From Bdellovibrionales bacterium (lineage in GTDB: Bacteria; Bdellovibrionota; Bdellovibrionia; Bdellovibrionales; JAUICD01), in NCBI GenBank assembly GCA_965262715.1, contig OZ253553.1, positions 2,496,001 to 2,560,000 of the forward strand: 64,000 nucleotides of DNA, read 5' to 3'. Shown here piece by piece: positions 30,001-48,000 of this stretch. The position numbers are program-made. Numbering within the stretch: position 1 is the first letter of the stretch; the number at the start of each line of letters is the position of its first letter.

Positions 30001-33000
30001 TGTATGAAATAAAACCCAATGTGATGAATGATAACGACTCACTGGTAAAATGCGATCTAAACCTAATTCCTTGTACATAGCTCCATAAACCTCATGAATA
30101 CCTACAATGACTCTTTGATCTTCCCTTAGTTTCTTAAGATCTACTTTTAAGGGTTTATTGCAATGACGAAACTTGGACTCAATCACTTGTTTAGAAATCT
30201 CTTCCGGAGCAAAAAAAGATAATTGATTTTCATTTGTTAGTTTAGCTTTGATGAATTCTCCAAGCTCTTGAAGACGAAATAGCTCATCCTCATCTTGAGC
30301 CACTCCGACATGACGGATGATCTTTTGGCGAACTTTATTGCCATAACGGATAGAATCAACGATCTGAACTGACTGCCTTGGACTGTTTGGTGTGCTTTTG
30401 ATTCTTACAAACATAAAAATAATTTAATGCTTATTAAAAAAAAAGTCAAAATAAAAATAAAAATAATCTGACTTGGTGTGTTACTAGGCACTACATCGAA
30501 AACTTACTCCAAAATCCTATAACCATCAATGTTACAAAACCAATACCGAACATAAACCGTCGAAGTCAGGAGGCCTTTCTACAGAAAAGATATTACAAGT
30601 TCATGTGCCTGCAATTGTAAATGCTCTCAAAGAAGAATTTTAATTTAAAATAAGGTTCACATAACTAGAAACCCTCTCAAAAATAAAGTCCTGTATTTTG
30701 CTTTTGCGAATTACAAAGTTAAAATAACAAATCATTATTATCCCGGGGTCTGGCAATCAGGCAATCGGTGTCTGGAAACTGGCGTCCATTCTGGAGACTT
30801 AGGTTATTATGTCTTAAAATGATGCTTCAATATAATACTCTCTTTATAAACTCACAACCAACTCACAAATTCATGATTATTAATGTCTCTTTTAGAGATA
30901 AGTACTAACCCTTCGTCTTTAGACAAAGCTAAATTTTTTACTTAAAAATGAGCCTCTAGAGACGAACCTCTAGAGGCGAGTCTCTCGAGGCGAGCCTCTG
31001 GTCATCTTTAAGAAGGAGATTCCTCTATACTAACATCAAGGAAATCTTTACGATTTTGATATAGAATCGTTTTAGTCAATCTTCAATTGATTCTATTTGA
31101 ATCTCTTATAGTCCAAAATTACTCTGCCAAAACCATCTATATTAAGCTTTCAAGATACAGCAGATTAAATATATTTAAGAACTTTTATCCAGATTCGTTA
31201 TTTTTACTTTATATTTTCAAATCATTAGACCGATATATTTTTATCTACACAATTAAACAATTAATTGTGAGTGAAGTTTTTATGAACTGAATAAAGATAA
31301 TAAAATCAAGAATCACAAAATAAGGAACTGCATTTTATGAAATTCTTTCTTTCTACATTTAGTTTAAAACTCGGACGTTTATGTATTTGTTTGTTGTTTT
31401 TAATGCTTGCAGCTTGCGGAGATGATGAAACTAAAGACTCCACAAGTGTTGGAGTCATAGTAACAGGGCTTGAAGATGATGCAACACCCAGAAAGGCAAA
31501 GACATGGAACTGGGGTTGTGAAGAAGATGGTGAAGAAGTAGATTGTGTTTATCGTCATGCGATCACCACAGCAGCATCCCATGATTTTAAAGATGATGAC
31601 TATGATGGTGAAGATAAAAGCGCAACCACTGATGATGGGCTTGATGGAAAACATTATATTCATGTCCAAGCACAATCTGAGGAGACAGATAATGAGTCAG
31701 AGGTAGAGACAGTTTCTGTGACACTAGATAATACCCTTCCAAATGACCCAGATCCAAATAATTTTGATGCTCCTAGTCCAAGTGCTAGCTCACCAATTCA
31801 GATCACTGTGAAAAATCTTAAGGCAGGAGATATAGTTCGCATTTATGTTGATGGCCCCGATAAAGAAGATACAGAAAATAGCAGTTTTCTTAGCAATGTT
31901 TGGAGCCTTGTTGCTCCTGCTTTAAATTTAAGCTCAACAACAACCTCTTCTGATACCATTTGTGCTGATGCAGATAATAAAGTAGGAGAAGAAACTGTTA
32001 GCAGTGGCCAGACACAGGTCACTGTAGATGTAGATGTAAATGTTAGTGAGCACGAATATTATGCAATAATTGAAGATGCAGCTGGAAACGAAAGTGCTTG
32101 TATAAAAGTGTTTACTTACGAGAATATTTTTGTACCTGAACCTCCTACTCCAACAGCTTGTCCATCCATCAAACCTCATTGGAAGTTTGTTGGCGGACTT
32201 TGTCGTCCTTCCTGTGGAGTTATTGCAGGACATGCAGGCTATGGCAGTGGATCTTATGCTCGTGGAGACGCAGAAACTTGTGAAACCCTGACTGCAAGTG
32301 GACATAGCGACTGGGAGGAATTTGAGATTGAAGATGGAGGTCAGACAATAAGCAGTAATGATGCTCATGAAGTAGAAGAGAGAGACGGCGTATGCTGTAA
32401 AAGAGGAACTGCTAGCAATGCATCTTCTCCACCAGTTGTGACAGGTCTTGATCACGACACTACACCGGGGCTTGAAAAAACTTTTACCTGGGGATGTGAT
32501 AAAAATAATTGTCGGTATAGATATGCCATCAATAAATATAGCTCTCATACCTTTCCTGAAAGTACTGTTTACACAAATACAACAACAATCACTAAACCTC
32601 AGGATAAGAGAACCAAGTATTATCTTCATGTACAAGCTGTTAATACAGACCGAGAATCTGCTGTTAAATCTGTATCATTTATCCTCGTGCCTCCTACTCC
32701 TCCTAAAGTGACAGGATTAGAGGATGATCCTACACCTAAGACAGTTAAAACATGGAGCTGGAATTGTGATAAAGGCTCTTGTACCTATCGTTATGCGATC
32801 AATCAAACTCAAACTCATACTTTTACAAATGAGTCTTATGGGCAAGATACAACAGCTACAAAACAGATCACATCTGCCAGTGAAAATGGAACTTATTATT
32901 TACATGTTCAAGCCATGGATTCAGATAGTAATGAGTCTGAAGTAAAAACAGTCCTTGCTATTCTTGAGCTCTCGGCAAATCAAGACATTCATGTCACTGG

Positions 33001-45000: not shown

Positions 45001-48000
45001 TGCCAGTGAAAATGGAACTTATTATTTACATGTGCAGGCCAAAGACTCAAATAATAATGAATCTGAAGTTAAAACAGTCCTTGCCATTCTTAAGATTTCA
45101 ACAACTACAACAAGTGATGTTCAAGTGACAGGTCTTCTGCATGATGATGTTCCTAAAACTTCAAAGACTTGGACTTGGAGTTGCAATAAGGGCTCTTGTA
45201 CATACCGCTATGCAGTCAATCAAGCTCAGTCTCATACTTTTTCTTCAGGAGGTTATACATCTACTCAAAGCGCTGTTAAGGCGATCTCTTCTGCCAATGA
45301 AAACGGCGTATATTATTTACATGTACAGGCGAGGGATTCAAACAACAATGAATCTGAAGTGAAGACAGTGATAGCTATTTTTGAAATTTCAAGTGTTGTA
45401 GGGACTGTACAAGTAACAGGACTCTCACATGATACTGATCCTAAACGTTCAAAGGCATGGAACTGGGGCTGCGATAAGAGTTCCTGTACCTATCGCTATA
45501 CAATCAATCAAAGTCAAACTCATACTTTTTCTAATAGTGATAGATATAGATCGACTCAAACAGCTACAAAACGGATCACCTCTTCAAGTCAAAATGGAAC
45601 ATATTATTTACATGTTCAAGCAAAAGATGGAGGTAACAATGAATCCCAGATAAGAACAATCCTTGTTATTCTTAGGTATAGTGGTGGAGTTGTAGGTGAT
45701 CTTGCAGTCATTGGAGTTGAAGATGATATTATAGCAAAAGATCGTAAAATATGGAGATGGTATTGCACCAATAACTCTGGCGCTTGTAGCTACCGTTATG
45801 TTGTTAATCAGACTGATACACATACCTTCCCAGACAGCCATAGCTTTGATTCAAGTCAAATGGCTGAACAGACAGCCGGTACTGATGACAATGGGACATA
45901 TTATCTGCATGTTCAGGCAAAGGATGGAGCAAATAATCTTTCAGCTGTCAGAAGTGTTGTTGCTTATCTTACTGAGACCCTTTTTCCATCTTCATTATTA
46001 AACTTTATTTGTAATCCCAGTGAAAGTGTTGGAAAAAGCACGCTTTGTTCATGGGGTGTTAGTGGTGGTGAATACCGTCATATAATCAGTGAAAGCGCGA
46101 CTCACATTTTTGGAGTTGATGATCTTTATAGCATGACCACTACTTCTGCAATTATTGATGTGGCCAATGGCAACCGTCATGCTGGTACAACGTATTATTT
46201 ACATGTACAGGGTAAAGATGCAAATGGTAATCTTTCTGATATAGAGACAAACTTTATCACTTTAACAGCAAAAGAGATTGTGGTGAAAATTGATGAAGAA
46301 GAGAGCAAAAAACTTAATAAAATGAGTCAAAAATGGAAGTGGGAATGTGATGAAACTCCAGATGCACCTGCTGAGGCAGCTACTCCGGATTGCGTATATC
46401 GCTACGCAGTCACCAAAGATGAATCTCATACATTTGACAATAATGATGGCTATGGAAGTAATGAGGAAATTACCAAGACTCTAACACATAAAGATGAGAA
46501 TGGTACTTATTACCTCCATGTACAAACCAAAGATGCTGATAATAATGTCTCTGCTGTTAAGAGCAGCGATCCTGGAGTAGAATTAGCATTTGAATTAGAC
46601 CTGGCATTAAAAGATCCAGAGCCTCATACAGCGCCAACCAGCGATGGTGGTGAGGAAGAGCCAACATCACTACAACTTCATCTAAATAAAACGCCTACCT
46701 TTACATTAAGAGGTGTATTGGATAATCATAAGGTGACACTTTACAGCTCATCAGAGTGTACAGATGGAAGTAATGATGATAATGGCGATCCTACTAAAGA
46801 CACTCGAATATCAAGTGAAATCACTATGTCATCAGGACAAGTAGATATCACTATTCCTAATAATAAGTTTTCTGATTTAACGACATATCCTATCTATGTA
46901 GGTGTTAAAGATTCTAATAACGACATAGATTGCTATGCTGCAACAAGCACCTCTAGTGCGACTCCTGTCATAGCTGATGATACAAATAAAGATACTATTG
47001 CACCTCTTTTTGAATACACTCTCTATAATCCTATAGCTGGGGGAGTTGAGAAAACATGTTATCTATCTACAACAGGGGATGTCAAGTGTTGGGGTGATGG
47101 CACTGAAACACCAGATTCTCTTGACAGCTCGAAAGCTAAGGCTGTGGTTGTAGGTGGTGAGAATAATGAATGTCGTATCTTAAGTGATGATACCGCAACT
47201 TGTACTGGAAATTTCGTCCCTACAGAAAATAATGATGAAGTTAATGCCATTGCTCTGGGTGCGGATCATGCTTGCAGCATTTTAAAGGAAGATAACTCTG
47301 TATACTGTTCTGGTGATGACAATGACAAAGGACAACTTGGAACAGGAACTGCATCAAGTGGCGCAGTTAATTTAGGTTGTGATGGTCCTAGTAATAGTTG
47401 TGATCAACTTAAAGCTAAGGACATTGTTGCTGGTGACAATCATACTTGCGTAATTCTTTTAGATGAGAATGAAAACAATCCAGGTCAGAACTATAATGGC
47501 AGAGTTCTCTGTTGGGGACATAATGCCAAAGGACAACTTGGACAAAATGATATATTAAATCATGGTGCTGAGCCTGATTTAAGTTCTCAAGATACACAAC
47601 CTAGCCTTGTCAGTCAACTTGACTATGTTAATTTGGGTAGTGGTCGAACTGCTAAATCTATTACAGCAGGACAAAACCATACATGCGCCCTATTAGATAA
47701 TAATACAGTGAAATGTTGGGGACATAATATATTAGGTCAACTAGGTCGAAACAATGTCATTGATTATGGTACCGATAACAATCAAATGAGCAGCTTAGGT
47801 ACCATTTCTCTAGGCAGGAGTGCTGCTTCTATTTTCACAGGAGTCGGCTCTAATCATACCTGCGCTGTTTTAGATAATAATACAGTGAAATGTTGGGGTA
47901 ATAACTGGAAAGGACAACTTGGACAAAATGATAAAACAAATGTTGATGAAGATGGAGAAATTGGAAGTGATGATGATCCTGACGATCCCTTCCTTGATGG

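What a model noticed while it worked through the whole genome (the two positions that open the first line are those of the whole stretch)
31000..48000. Ankyrin- and RCC1-repeat proteins are nearly all Sec-exported, and no type III, IV, V or VI secretion system exists
The genome carries 81 ankyrin-repeat genes and 9 RCC1-repeat genes (two of 1938 and 2318 aa, g02141 and g02145), usually read as eukaryote-directed effectors. Here 67 of the 81 ankyrin proteins and 9 of 9 RCC1 proteins begin with a Sec-type signal peptide (7 RCC1 proteins with a lipobox), while 11 Fic proteins have none. No component of type III, IV, V or VI secretion is encoded; only type II secretion, type IV pili, Tad pili (four secretins) and TolC-type efflux. 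The repeat proteins are therefore periplasmic, surface-bound or type-II-secreted, unlike the injected ankyrin effectors of Legionella, Coxiella, Rickettsia or Wolbachia.
Evidence so far: Own heuristic (hydrophobic 10-mer, Kyte-Doolittle >=2.0, no D/E, within the first 38 residues, preceded by K/R): positive in 67/81 Ank, 9/9 RCC1, 19/23 prepilins, 7/8 SBP_bac, but 1/50 ribosomal proteins, 0/20 tRNA synthetases, 1/59 DDE transposases, 0/11 Fic. pfam.tsv has none of CagE_TrbE_VirB, VirB8, CagX, TrbI, T4SS-DNA_transf, TraG-D_C, FHIPEP, Bac_export_1-3, YscJ_FliF, T6SS_VipA, VipB, T6SS_HCP, Phage_GPD, IcmF, Autotransporter, TPS, ShlB; Secretin in g00217, g00679, g01362, g02448. Ank genes are not enriched next to hydrolase genes (17/81 vs 12.9 expected, 12% of 2000 shuffles reach it; call 145).
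(Added by a program. Inside this text positions count along the whole contig: contig position 2,496,001 is position 1 of the stretch shown here. "Call 12" and the like, gene names such as g00115 and contig names such as C1 are that model's own, and its searches are not shown. The text may have been shortened before it was handed on; [...] marks where a part breaks off. The agent that wrote the report below was given it as the finding of a first reader that could run no searches.)

Follow-up and report, generated by a model that had tools for sequence, protein, structure and literature searches.

The report
Sec-exported ankyrin and RCC1 repeat proteins
An uncultured, flagellum-less relative of Bdellovibrio puts export signals on nearly all of its roughly 80-100 ankyrin proteins and all 9 RCC1 proteins and has no injection-type secretion system, a pattern already described in another parasitic bacterial phylum.

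Summary
The window carries two paralogous giant genes (1938 and 2318 aa). Each has a lipoprotein signal peptide, 11 or 15 Ig-like units of about 97 aa, and a C-terminal seven-blade RCC1 propeller. Genome-wide I recover 81 Ank_2-positive frames, 9 RCC1 frames, 11 Fic genes and 4 secretins. An independent signal-peptide rule of 81 Ank frames, 0 of 11 Fic, and 26.5% of other genes. All 9 RCC1 frames have a hydrophobic leader ending in Cys. Hallmark families of type III, IV, Va, Vb and VI secretion and of contractile sheaths gave no match. T2SS (GspD, E, F, G, J, K), type IVa pili and two Tad-like loci are present.

New here:
- Ank expansion tracks loss of the flagellar export gene among relatives, and the relatives' Ank proteins also carry signal peptides.
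- RCC1 proteins are order-wide, occur in flagellated relatives too and are exported there, so the two families should not be lumped.
- Conserved cysteine pairs in every Ig unit and propeller blade independently argue for an extracytoplasmic location.

The export inference is supported. The final location and the targets remain untested. This is a new member of a known kind: Chromulinavorax (Dependentiae) has 98 Ank proteins, 78% with signal peptides. This scan has noted exported ankyrins in other genomes.

The parts
31337..37153 (+). Giant RCC1 lipoprotein gene 1 (1938 aa). It has a lipoprotein signal peptide, 11 Ig-like units and a C-terminal RCC1 propeller.
   Evidence: Open frame and translation. 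Pfam RCC1_2 112.7 bits, RCC1 40.6 bits; Y_Y_Y 47.9 bits summed over repeats. 11 'YYLHVQ'-type anchors at a period of about 97 aa.
31337..31417 (+). Signal peptide with lipobox L-A-A-C (Cys27). The same leader opens gene 2 at 41444-41524.
   Evidence: N-terminus read. Called lipobox type by my rule. LspA (2 matches) and LolA are present in the genome.
32702..35311 (+). Tandem array of Ig-like units of about 97 aa in gene 1. One further unit lies at 31454-31744.
   Evidence: Unit coordinates. DNA direct repeats at 285-291 nt spacing. W18, W20, C22, C27, R30, H69, Q71 and S80 are invariant in 22 aligned units. AlphaFold2 model of one unit is an all-beta sandwich, pLDDT 94.
35630..37150 (+). RCC1-like seven-blade beta-propeller of gene 1.
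   Evidence: Seven blade matches with my own RCC1 HMM. 93% nucleotide identity to gene 2 over 4.4 kb.
41444..48400 (+). Giant RCC1 lipoprotein gene 2 (2318 aa). Same leader as gene 1, 15 Ig-like units (41561-41851 and 42809-46573) and an RCC1 propeller (46895-48397).
   Evidence: The AlphaFold2 model of residues 1780-2318 (pLDDT 66, pTM 0.72) matches UVR8 (E 2.5e-18), human RCC1 (5e-15) and HERC2 RCC1-like domains in Foldseek.
38895..40846 (-). IS4-like insertion sequence between the two giant genes (transposase 39015-40661). It has 19-bp perfect inverted ends and is flanked by a 120-bp direct repeat (38776-38895 and 40843-40962).
   Evidence: Pfam DDE_Tnp_1 50.5 bits. Inverted repeat I3 and direct repeat D8.
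37746..41054 (-). IS256-like (Mutator family) transposase gene, split by the IS4-like insertion into pieces at 37746-38921 and 40776-41054.
   Evidence: Pfam Transposase_mut 124.2 bits. The 92-aa upstream frame ends with the residues that open the 379-aa frame. The 120-bp duplication lies at the junctions.
28650..30571 (-). Second IS4-like element upstream of gene 1 (transposase 28753-30414). It has 19-bp inverted ends and is flanked by a 239-bp perfect direct repeat (28412-28650 and 30570-30808).
   Evidence: Pfam DDE_Tnp_1 53.6 bits. Repeats I1 and D6.
53830..61581 (-). Type IVa pilus genes in the same window: PilB (59725-61581), a PilT-like ATPase (58413-59465), PilC (57190-58407), and a sensor kinase (55437-57182) with a sigma-54 response regulator (53830-55233).
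   Evidence: NCBIfam: PilB 676.9 bits (cut-off 675.65). The PilT family scores 198.9 and PilC 379.3, both below their equivalog cut-offs.

Best explanation
The genome belongs to a flagellum-less sublineage of an order whose public relatives are labelled Bdellovibrionales. Its repeat-protein arsenal leaves the cytoplasm by the general two-step route, not by injection.

Step 1, strongly supported. Ank and RCC1 proteins carry Sec-type leaders and are translocated by Sec. They are cleaved by signal peptidase I (most Ank proteins) or lipidated and cleaved by LspA (most RCC1 proteins and a few Ank proteins).

Step 2a, inferred. RCC1 lipoproteins go through LolA to the outer membrane. The two giant ones in the window work like adhesins. 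An N-terminal lipid anchor holds a stalk of 11 or 15 disulfide-braced Ig-like units, and the stalk presents a disulfide-braced seven-blade propeller as the binding head. A stalk that long would overshoot the periplasm, so I place them on the cell surface. RCC1 proteins are an old, order-wide envelope family and not a eukaryote-directed novelty.

Step 2b, inferred. The soluble Ank proteins fold in the periplasm. Most are then released by the type II secretion system, or in vesicles, to bind proteins of the cell the bacterium lives on or in. A minority may stay periplasmic. The Ank expansion is lineage-specific and coincides with loss of the flagellar export gene and with smaller genomes. I read that as a shift from hunting bacteria to life with eukaryotic cells.
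For: Leaders:
- 68 of 81 Ank frames, against 26.5% of 2250 other genes.
- 1 of 30 named cytoplasmic proteins and 0 of 11 Fic proteins.
- 9 of 9 RCC1 frames have a leader ending in Cys.

Machinery present:
- LspA twice and LolA.
- GspD 514.9 bits and GspE 701.4 bits, both above equivalog cut-offs.
- T2SSF, T2SSG, T2SSJ and T2SSK.

Machinery with no match: VirB4, T4CP, FHIPEP, VipB, Autotransporter, ShlB and phage sheath.

Oxidising-compartment signature:
- C22 and C27 are invariant in 22 Ig-like units.
- 14 invariant Cys, one pair per blade, in 6 RCC1 paralogues.

Folds:
- The unit is a beta sandwich, pLDDT 94. Its best but weak matches are PKD, the BT4663 periplasmic domain and intimin Ig-like domains.
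- The C-terminus matches UVR8 and RCC1 at E 1e-18 to 1e-15.

Phyletic pattern:
- Ank_2 matches at E<=1e-8 number 82, 164, 42, 107 and 28 in G000, G001, G003, G004 and G011. All five lack FHIPEP. The 15 FHIPEP-positive genomes have 0-6. The exception is G007, which lacks FHIPEP but has only 3.
- Signal peptides are called on 37 of 50, 28 of 35, 10 of 11 and 3 of 3 Ank frames sampled from G001, G004, G003 and G011. Neighbouring long frames give 19-33%.
- RCC1_2 is found in 12 of 21 genomes, including flagellated ones, and is absent from the reduced G003, G004 and G011.
- 18 of 24 RCC1 frames from flagellated relatives carry a signal peptide.

Family size: the Ig-like unit occurs in 1454 cluster representatives. 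Of the best 150, 74 start with a signal peptide and 38 also carry RCC1.
Against: - No step after Sec is shown. No tool here separates periplasmic from secreted proteins.
- GspC, L and M were not identified, so T2SS function is assumed.
- The ATP/ADP translocase typical of many intracellular parasites was not found (and no control genome rang).
- No Slam-type lipoprotein exporter was found (no positive control), so the route of the giants to the surface is unexplained.
- Signal peptides were again called by a home-made rule, with the start codon chosen among up to 12 candidates.
- The assembly is one contig with 92.7% estimated completeness, so a plasmid-borne system would be invisible.
- The link between Ank expansion and flagellar loss rests on perhaps two independent lineages (families f1 and f8), and G007 breaks it.
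Confidence: 0.55

Rival explanations
1. Most Ank proteins stay in the bacterium's own periplasm. There they bind its own exported proteins, either as inhibitors or immunity partners of secreted hydrolases (as Bd3460 does in Bdellovibrio) or as envelope factors (as reported for Rickettsia RARP-1). They never meet a host protein.
For: Bd3460 is a small signal-peptide ankyrin that is retained in the periplasm and blocks the predator's own DD-endopeptidases (PMC4686830, passages). RARP-1 is described as periplasmic in the title and abstract listing of bioRxiv 10.1101/2022.02.23.481736. The lineage is related to Bdellovibrio. A Sec leader alone delivers a protein only to the periplasm.
Against: - About 80-160 paralogues per genome, many in tandem arrays (23 clusters of 2-7 genes), is far more than any known immunity need.
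- Flagellated, presumably predatory relatives have only 0-6 strong Ank matches.
- The only S13 DD-endopeptidase gene (1699283-1700593) has no adjacent Ank gene. The nearest lies 4.7 kb and four genes away.
I did not repeat it.
Confidence: 0.25
2. An undetected delivery machine exists. It could be a plasmid-borne or highly divergent T4SS or T3SS, a type I system, or a pilus-type machine used as a secretion device. The N-terminal leaders would then be only part of the story.
For: Completeness is estimated at 92.7% and only one contig is held. VirB4 is present in 4 of 16 genomes of other families in the order. Three TadA/VirB11-like ATPases, two Tad-like secretins and a type IVa pilus system are present. 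The ShlB and Slam searches had no positive control.
Against: VirB4, T4CP, FHIPEP, VipB and sheath all gave nothing in this genome or in its four family relatives, apart from one flagellar FHIPEP in G002. The three TadA-like ATPases score best against the TadA family and sit beside Tad-type secretins, not VirB genes. Substrates of T3SS, T4SS and T1SS do not normally carry cleavable Sec leaders (established knowledge).
Confidence: 0.1
3. The signal-peptide enrichment is an artefact of the heuristic, or of start-codon choice in AT-rich, hydrophobic-prone N-termini.
For: I accepted any of up to 12 candidate starts. My crude gene finder mis-set starts: it cut the leader off gene 1.
Against: With the same freedom of start choice, the background is 26.5%, cytoplasmic proteins 1 of 30 and Fic 0 of 11. 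With the longest start only, Ank is still 78% against 22%. The printed N-termini show the classic pattern of a charged start, a hydrophobic core and an A-x-A-like site. The same holds in four other genomes.
Confidence: 0.03

Closest known systems
Ankyrin arsenal of Chromulinavorax destructans and other Dependentiae (TM6)
   Same: Both have about a hundred Ank genes, most with a Sec signal peptide: 78% of 98 there (PMC6561590, passages) and 68 of 81 here. In both, only T2SS or type-IV-pilus-like machinery was reported or found (PMC4776705, passages; here), and Sec is proposed as the exit route.
   Different: This is a different phylum. The genome is 2.9 Mb, not about 1.2 Mb. No ATP/ADP translocase was found here. 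A host is unknown here, whereas Chromulinavorax is a cultured intracellular pathogen of a flagellate.
Bd3460 of Bdellovibrio bacteriovorus (self-protection ankyrin)
   Same: It is a small ankyrin protein with a signal peptide, exported to the periplasm, in a related lineage (PMC4686830, passages).
   Different: Bd3460 is a single gene in an operon with its DD-endopeptidase target. Here there are 81 or more genes and none lies next to the S13 peptidase gene.
Injected ankyrin effectors of Legionella, Coxiella, Anaplasma and Wolbachia (type IV), and of Orientia (type I)
   Same: All are large families of Ank proteins in bacteria that live with eukaryotic cells. NCBIfam models of Legionella Ank effectors hit the repeats here, far below their cut-offs.
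   Different: Those substrates need a T4SS or T1SS and carry C-terminal or internal signals (recalled; the Orientia T1SS point is from the title and abstract listing of PMC4315096). Here there is no VirB4 or coupling protein, and N-terminal cleavable leaders are present.
Sponge-associated Bdellovibrionota genomes (Bathydorus microbiome, MAGs B11 and B12)
   Same: They have small, low-GC genomes without flagellar genes, and B11 has the highest Ank count of its community (12 Ank domains) (PMC9944714, passages).
   Different: Their Ank numbers are far lower. Signal peptides and secretion systems were not discussed in the passages I saw. I did not test how they are related to this genome.
Rickettsia RARP-1
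   Same: It is an ankyrin protein with a Sec leader that proved to be periplasmic (bioRxiv 10.1101/2022.02.23.481736, title and abstract listing only).
   Different: It is a single conserved gene in a bacterium that also has a T4SS (recalled).
Surface adhesins built as an Ig-like stalk plus a distal binding domain (intimin/invasin, giant RTX adhesins), and extracellular RCC1-like propellers (plant CRINKLY4 ectodomain; BLIP-II of Streptomyces, recalled)
   Same: The giants share the long tandem array of Ig-like domains and a terminal binding module. The intimin D00-D0 domains and the CR4 ectodomain appear among the fold matches. Cysteine pairs occur in each blade here.
   Different: The anchor here is an N-terminal lipid, not a beta-barrel or a T1SS retention module. 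The unit is an undescribed sequence family that reaches Pfam Y_Y_Y only when summed over repeats. No ligand is known.

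Membership tests
Bacterial lipoprotein (SPase II substrate) | A positively charged n-region, a hydrophobic core, and a lipobox ending in Cys within about the first 40 residues | tested here: met
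   Both giants have K2, K11 and R14, a hydrophobic core, then L-A-A-C27. Six of 9 RCC1 frames have canonical lipoboxes, two have GFQNC and one has LVRC.
Bacterial lipoprotein (SPase II substrate) | Processing and sorting machinery encoded in the genome (LspA, LolA) | tested here: met
   Peptidase_A8 gives 2 matches (138 and 80.3 bits). LolA scores 36.4 bits, over its cut-off. Lgt and Lnt were not searched.
RCC1-like beta-propeller (Pfam RCC1 / RCC1_2) | Pfam match above the gathering score and seven blades | tested here: met
   RCC1_2 scores 112.7 and 113.3 bits (cut-off 22), and RCC1 scores 40.6 and 33.1 bits (cut-off 21.7). Seven blade matches are found in 7 of 9 paralogues.
RCC1-like beta-propeller (Pfam RCC1 / RCC1_2) | Fold resembles solved RCC1-like domains | tested here: met
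   Foldseek gives UVR8 at E 2.5e-18, RCC1 (1a12) at 5e-15 and HERC2 RCC1-like domains at 1e-14. The model is of moderate quality (pLDDT 66.4).
Y_Y_Y / Ig-like beta-sandwich domain | Pfam Y_Y_Y match and an Ig-like fold | tested here: inconclusive
   The whole-protein Y_Y_Y score is 47.9 and 69.3 bits (cut-off 26.6), but no single stretch passes on its own. The model is a six-strand sandwich with pLDDT 94. Foldseek finds no match at E<=0.001; the best rows are a PKD domain (TM 0.64) and BT4663 (TM 0.60).
Type IV-secreted ankyrin effectors (Legionella/Coxiella type) | A type IV secretion system in the same genome (VirB4-family ATPase, coupling protein) | tested here: not met
   CagE_TrbE_VirB gives 0 matches, while Caulobacter and 4 relatives ring. 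TraG-D_C gives 0 matches, while 4 control genomes ring.
Type IV-secreted ankyrin effectors (Legionella/Coxiella type) | No cleavable N-terminal Sec leader; the translocation signal lies elsewhere | tested here: not met
   68 of 81 Ank frames have an N-terminal leader.
Sec-exported ankyrin arsenal of intracellular parasites (Dependentiae type) | Tens to a hundred Ank genes, most with a signal peptide | tested here: met
   81 frames, 68 with a leader. The same holds in four related genomes.
Sec-exported ankyrin arsenal of intracellular parasites (Dependentiae type) | No T3SS, T4SS or T6SS; T2SS or pilus-type secretins only | tested here: met
   Searches are negative. Four secretins and the T2SS genes D, E, F, G, J and K are present.
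Sec-exported ankyrin arsenal of intracellular parasites (Dependentiae type) | Energy parasitism (ATP/ADP translocase) and an obligate intracellular life in a protist | tested here: not met
   TLC gives 0 matches in G000 and its family, though no control genome rang. Lifestyle cannot be tested with these tools.
Bd3460-type self-protection ankyrin | A small signal-peptide ankyrin encoded next to the secreted DD-endopeptidase that it inhibits | tested here: not met
   Peptidase_S13 lies at 1699283-1700593. The nearest Ank genes are 4.7 kb upstream and 9 kb downstream, neither adjacent.
Type II secretion system | Secretin GspD, ATPase GspE, platform GspF, and major and minor pseudopilins | tested here: met
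   GspD scores 514.9 bits (cut-off 351.35) and GspE 701.4 bits (cut-off 630.25). T2SSF scores 213.4, T2SSG 89.5, T2SSJ 50.4 and T2SSK_1st 41.8 bits. The genes lie at three separate loci.
Type II secretion system | Assembly-platform proteins GspC, GspL and GspM | tested here: inconclusive
   None was identified in the three loci scanned. No genome-wide search was made.

The most novel reading that the evidence does not exclude
Within an order of flagellated bacterial predators, at least two sublineages (families f1 and f8 of the searches) have independently given up the flagellum, shrunk their genomes and built arsenals of 30-160 signal-peptide ankyrin proteins. That would mark an undescribed switch from preying on bacteria to living on or in eukaryotic cells. 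Host manipulation would run entirely through Sec plus type II secretion and surface lipoproteins, converging on the Dependentiae solution.
Probability: 0.35. Interest if true: 0.65.

Novelty: new member of a known kind. Interest (0 to 1): 0.4.

Why it matters
Ankyrin expansions are routinely read as injected effectors, and that reading presupposes a T3SS, T4SS or T6SS. This genome and four relatives add a second, unrelated lineage after Dependentiae. In it, a large ankyrin arsenal carries ordinary Sec leaders and no injection machine was found.

Where such arsenals occur, genome annotators should therefore check the N-termini before calling the proteins 'effectors'. T2SS or vesicle delivery deserves testing as a general route for eukaryote-like repeat proteins.

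The result also flags a flagellum-less, ankyrin-rich branch of Bdellovibrio-like bacteria as a candidate for a predator-to-symbiont transition. And it defines an uncharacterised family of giant lipoproteins, with a disulfide-braced Ig-like stalk and an RCC1 head, that occurs in more than a thousand protein clusters.

Tried and rejected
- My crude gene finder (2383 genes, 78% coding density) often chose starts downstream of the leader; it cut gene 1 to begin at residue 23. I therefore scored up to 12 candidate starts per frame and applied the same freedom to all controls.
- One search was an empty script.
- ATP/ADP translocase as a mark of intracellular life: none found, and no control genome rang.
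- Slam/DUF560 as a route for surface lipoproteins: none found, no positive control.
- ShlB in the own genome had no positive control. Repeated over 61 genomes of the order, only 3 reach the cut-off and G000 has none.
- Bd3460-type operon: not found.
- Foldseek of the Ig-like unit against the PDB: no match at E<=0.001. I did not run the VIA-align libraries.
- Rfam on the 1.9-kb ORF-less stretch after gspE: nothing.
- Literature. Searches for a statement on Bdellovibrio secretion systems and for RCC1 lipoproteins returned nothing usable. Searches for 'Bdellovibrionota/Bdellovibrionales + ankyrin (+ endosymbiont)' returned 2 and 10 papers. None that I opened or saw listed describes an ankyrin-rich flagellum-less clade of this size. 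PMC9944714 comes nearest.
- I did not Pfam-scan the Ank proteins themselves for extra domains. I also did not use expression data, complex prediction or the protein atlas.

Full report
WHAT IS IN THE WINDOW

The flagged stretch holds two long plus-strand frames, 31337-37153 (1938 aa) and 41444-48400 (2318 aa). Both open with the same 27-residue leader: a charged start, a hydrophobic core, then L-A-A-C. Pfam finds RCC1_2 (112.7 and 113.3 bits, cut-off 22) and RCC1 at the C-terminus. It also finds a Y_Y_Y signal that passes only when summed over many repeats.

The middle of each protein is a tandem array of units of about 97 aa: 11 in the first protein and 15 in the second. The array shows up in the DNA as direct repeats spaced 285-291 nt apart.

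The two genes are paralogues. They are 93% identical over the last 4.4 kb and 83% identical over the first 3.1 kb, and they differ by four units.

Mobile DNA lies between them. An IS256-like transposase gene has been split by an IS4-like element with 19-bp inverted ends and a 120-bp flanking duplication. A second IS4-like element with a 239-bp duplication lies just upstream of the first gene.

THE GIANT PROTEINS

In an alignment of 22 units from five paralogues, W18, W20, C22, C27, R30, H69, Q71 and S80 are invariant. AlphaFold2 folds one unit as a six-strand beta sandwich with mean pLDDT 94. Foldseek finds no PDB match at E<=0.001. The best weak rows are a PKD domain, the periplasmic domain of BT4663 and intimin Ig-like domains. 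I therefore call the unit Ig-like and otherwise undescribed.

A profile of the unit finds 1454 cluster representatives at E<=0.001 among 1.84 billion proteins, 176 of them at E<=1e-30, in proteins of up to about 6100 aa. Of the best 150:
- 74 begin with a signal peptide by my rule (45 of lipobox type);
- 13 do not start with M, and many others look like fragments;
- 38 also carry RCC1 repeats.

In species-representative genomes the unit turns up mostly in records titled Bdellovibrionales, Bacteriovoracales or Bacteriovoracia, Oligoflexia or Bdellovibrio. It also appears in Victivallales/Lentisphaerae and some others.

The C-terminal 539 residues were modelled from six paralogues (pLDDT 66, pTM 0.72). 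The model matches UVR8, RCC1 and the HERC2 RCC1-like domains at E 1e-18 to 1e-14. Seven of the nine RCC1 paralogues show seven blades. Fourteen cysteines are invariant across the six paralogues, one pair per blade.

Cysteine pairs in every unit and every blade are what one expects of proteins that fold outside the cytoplasm. This evidence is independent of any signal-peptide rule.

GENOME-WIDE COUNTS

Pfam Ank_2 gives 142 matches, with 150 of 201 candidates scored. These fall in 81 stop-to-stop frames. My own HMM extends this to 110 frames, fragments included. RCC1_2 matches fall in 9 frames. Fic gives 11 matches and Secretin gives 4.

SIGNAL PEPTIDES

It needs a hydrophobic 10-mer without charge, a net-positive n-region, and then either a lipobox or a -3/-1 site. 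Because my crude gene finder mis-set starts, I scored up to 12 candidate starts per frame and applied the same freedom to the controls.

| Set | Called with a leader |
|---|---|
| 81 Ank frames | 62 SPase-I type + 6 lipobox type = 68 |
| 107 Ank genes in my gene set, any of up to 12 starts | 87 |
| 107 Ank genes in my gene set, longest start only | 83 |
| 2250 non-Ank genes, any of up to 12 starts | 596 (26.5%) |
| 2250 non-Ank genes, longest start only | 501 |
| 30 NCBIfam-named cytoplasmic proteins | 1 |
| 8 NCBIfam-named envelope proteins | 6 |
| 11 Fic proteins | 0 |

Of the remaining 13 Ank frames, 2 are hydrophobic without a net-positive n-region, 5 have no leader and 6 are fragments with no upstream start. 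The enrichment has Fisher p about 1e-30.

All nine RCC1 frames have a hydrophobic leader ending in Cys. Six are canonical lipoboxes, two are GFQNC and one is LVRC.

SECRETION MACHINERY

No match was found in this genome for:
- VirB4;
- the T4SS coupling-protein domain;
- FHIPEP;
- VipB/TssC;
- the autotransporter barrel;
- ShlB;
- phage-type sheath.

Every one of these families except ShlB rang in at least one control genome.

Present are:
- type IVa pilus genes: PilM and the secretin PilQ, with three unnamed genes between them, and PilB, a PilT-like ATPase and PilC inside the window;
- GspD and GspE, above NCBIfam equivalog cut-offs;
- two Tad-like secretin loci, one beside a TadA-like ATPase and one beside CpaB;
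- a second T2SSF gene;
- a pseudopilin cluster with T2SSG, J and K about 5-9 kb upstream of the window;
- LspA and LolA.

GspC, L and M were not identified.

WHAT THE RELATIVES ADD

I searched 20 relatives of the same order.

- VipB gave no match and Autotransporter none above its cut-off in any of the 21 genomes. VirB4 is absent from the window's own family. Lack of these systems is therefore the rule in the lineage.
- FHIPEP is present in 15 of 21 genomes. It is missing from G000, its congener G001, the two 1.6-Mb genomes G003 and G004, and from G007 and G011.
- Strong Ank matches (E<=1e-8) number 82, 164, 42, 107 and 28 in G000, G001, G003, G004 and G011. The 15 genomes that have FHIPEP have 0-6. 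G007 is the exception, with 3.
- In DNA sampled around Ank matches, 37 of 50 (G001), 28 of 35 (G004), 10 of 11 (G003) and 3 of 3 (G011) Ank frames carry a leader. Neighbouring long frames give 19-33%.
- RCC1 behaves differently. RCC1_2 is found in 12 of 21 genomes, many of them flagellated, and not in G003, G004 or G011.
- 18 of 24 RCC1 frames from flagellated relatives have a leader by my rule. Two of the four misses show a twin-arginine-like start by eye.

So exported RCC1 proteins are an old feature of the order. The exported ankyrin arsenal is a derived feature of its flagellum-less members.

HOW IT MOST LIKELY WORKS

Shown: the leaders, the machinery, the cysteine signature and the phyletic patterns.

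Inferred:
- RCC1 lipoproteins are lipidated and carried by LolA to the outer membrane.
- The giants sit on the cell surface as adhesin-like molecules. A stalk of 11-15 Ig-like domains, each about 4 nm long by general knowledge, would be longer than a periplasm is wide.
- The soluble Ank proteins fold in the periplasm, and most are released by the T2SS or in vesicles to bind proteins of a eukaryotic partner.

The main rival is that the Ank proteins stay in the periplasm, as Bd3460 does (PMC4686830) and as is reported for RARP-1 (listing). The copy number, the tandem arrays, the scarcity of Ank in flagellated relatives and the lack of an Ank gene beside the S13 endopeptidase argue against it for the bulk of the family. 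It cannot be excluded.

No ATP/ADP translocase was found. An obligate energy-parasitic life is therefore not indicated.

COMPARISON WITH WHAT IS KNOWN

The closest precedent is Chromulinavorax destructans, with 98 Ank proteins, 78% carrying a signal peptide, and Sec named as the route (PMC6561590). [quoted passage not shown]

Reduced, flagellum-less Bdellovibrionota from a sponge, with 12 Ank domains in MAG B11, have been reported (PMC9944714).

My library searches for Bdellovibrionota or Bdellovibrionales with ankyrin showed no description of arsenals of this size or of their leaders. Supplementary tables of those papers were not read.

Earlier notes of this scan had already labelled the genome as Bdellovibrionales-like and had recorded exported ankyrins in other genomes.

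VERDICT

- The kind of system is already known.
- Worth following up: the link between Ank expansion and flagellar loss, the separation of Ank from RCC1, and the giant lipoprotein family.

Noticed in passing
window 28412-30808 and 38776-40962; also genome 1699256-1704964: IS4-like elements with 19-bp perfect inverted ends are flanked by unusually long direct duplications: 239 bp and 120 bp in the window. Around a third copy, about 1.2 kb is duplicated, including the start of the S13 peptidase gene and its neighbour. Long target duplications are a trait I recall for the IS1634 group of IS4.
   Followed up: partly
window 13488-13897, 23202-23215, 24719-24746, 30952-30993, 37302-37357: A 14-nt motif with a palindromic core (GCCTCT[A/C]GAG[A/G]C[A/G]A) occurs 13 times in the window against 0.02 expected. 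It is often in tandem runs of 3-4, including just upstream and just downstream of giant gene 1.
   Followed up: partly
genome, 14 genes, e.g. 54661-57015, 873073-876171, 2386986-2388464, 2723326-2725125: A non-canonical lipobox-like ending, [G/A/S]-F-Q-N-C, closes the leader of 14 genes. Nine of them form a family of lipoproteins of about 720-1090 aa with nearly identical leaders.
   Followed up: no
genome, e.g. 728857-735755, 1718700-1729277, 2624084-2625581: About 15 paralogous type IV pilin genes share a near-identical N-terminus (…GFSLVELMVVVAIIG…). This is an unusually large pilin repertoire.
   Followed up: no
L002:10204-12100 (genome 2868204-2870100): A 1.9-kb stretch directly after gspE has no ORF of 40 aa or more on either strand and no Rfam match.
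   Followed up: partly
Ank genes of G000 (10 of 68 with leaders) and of G001, G003 and G004: A subset of exported Ank proteins has a conserved Cys-x-x-[A/S]-L just after the predicted cleavage site (e.g. …C-A-E-A-L…). It recurs across genomes and marks a subfamily with a shared N-terminal module.
   Followed up: partly
L088 (G013:C35) frames 1611-2877 and 10488-11736: Two RCC1 propeller proteins of a flagellated relative start with twin-arginine-like leaders (…RR[K/E]…F.G…), suggesting Tat export of a folded propeller (read by eye).
   Followed up: no
L005:3080-7822 (genome 115080-119822): A 734-aa TadA/VirB11-like ATPase with a long N-terminal extension lies two genes from a YD/RHS-repeat protein.
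   Followed up: no
L003:16751-18425 and L102:9316-9929: HipA/HipB-like and HicA/HicB toxin-antitoxin pairs lie next to Ank genes and to the T2SS pseudopilin cluster respectively.
   Followed up: no
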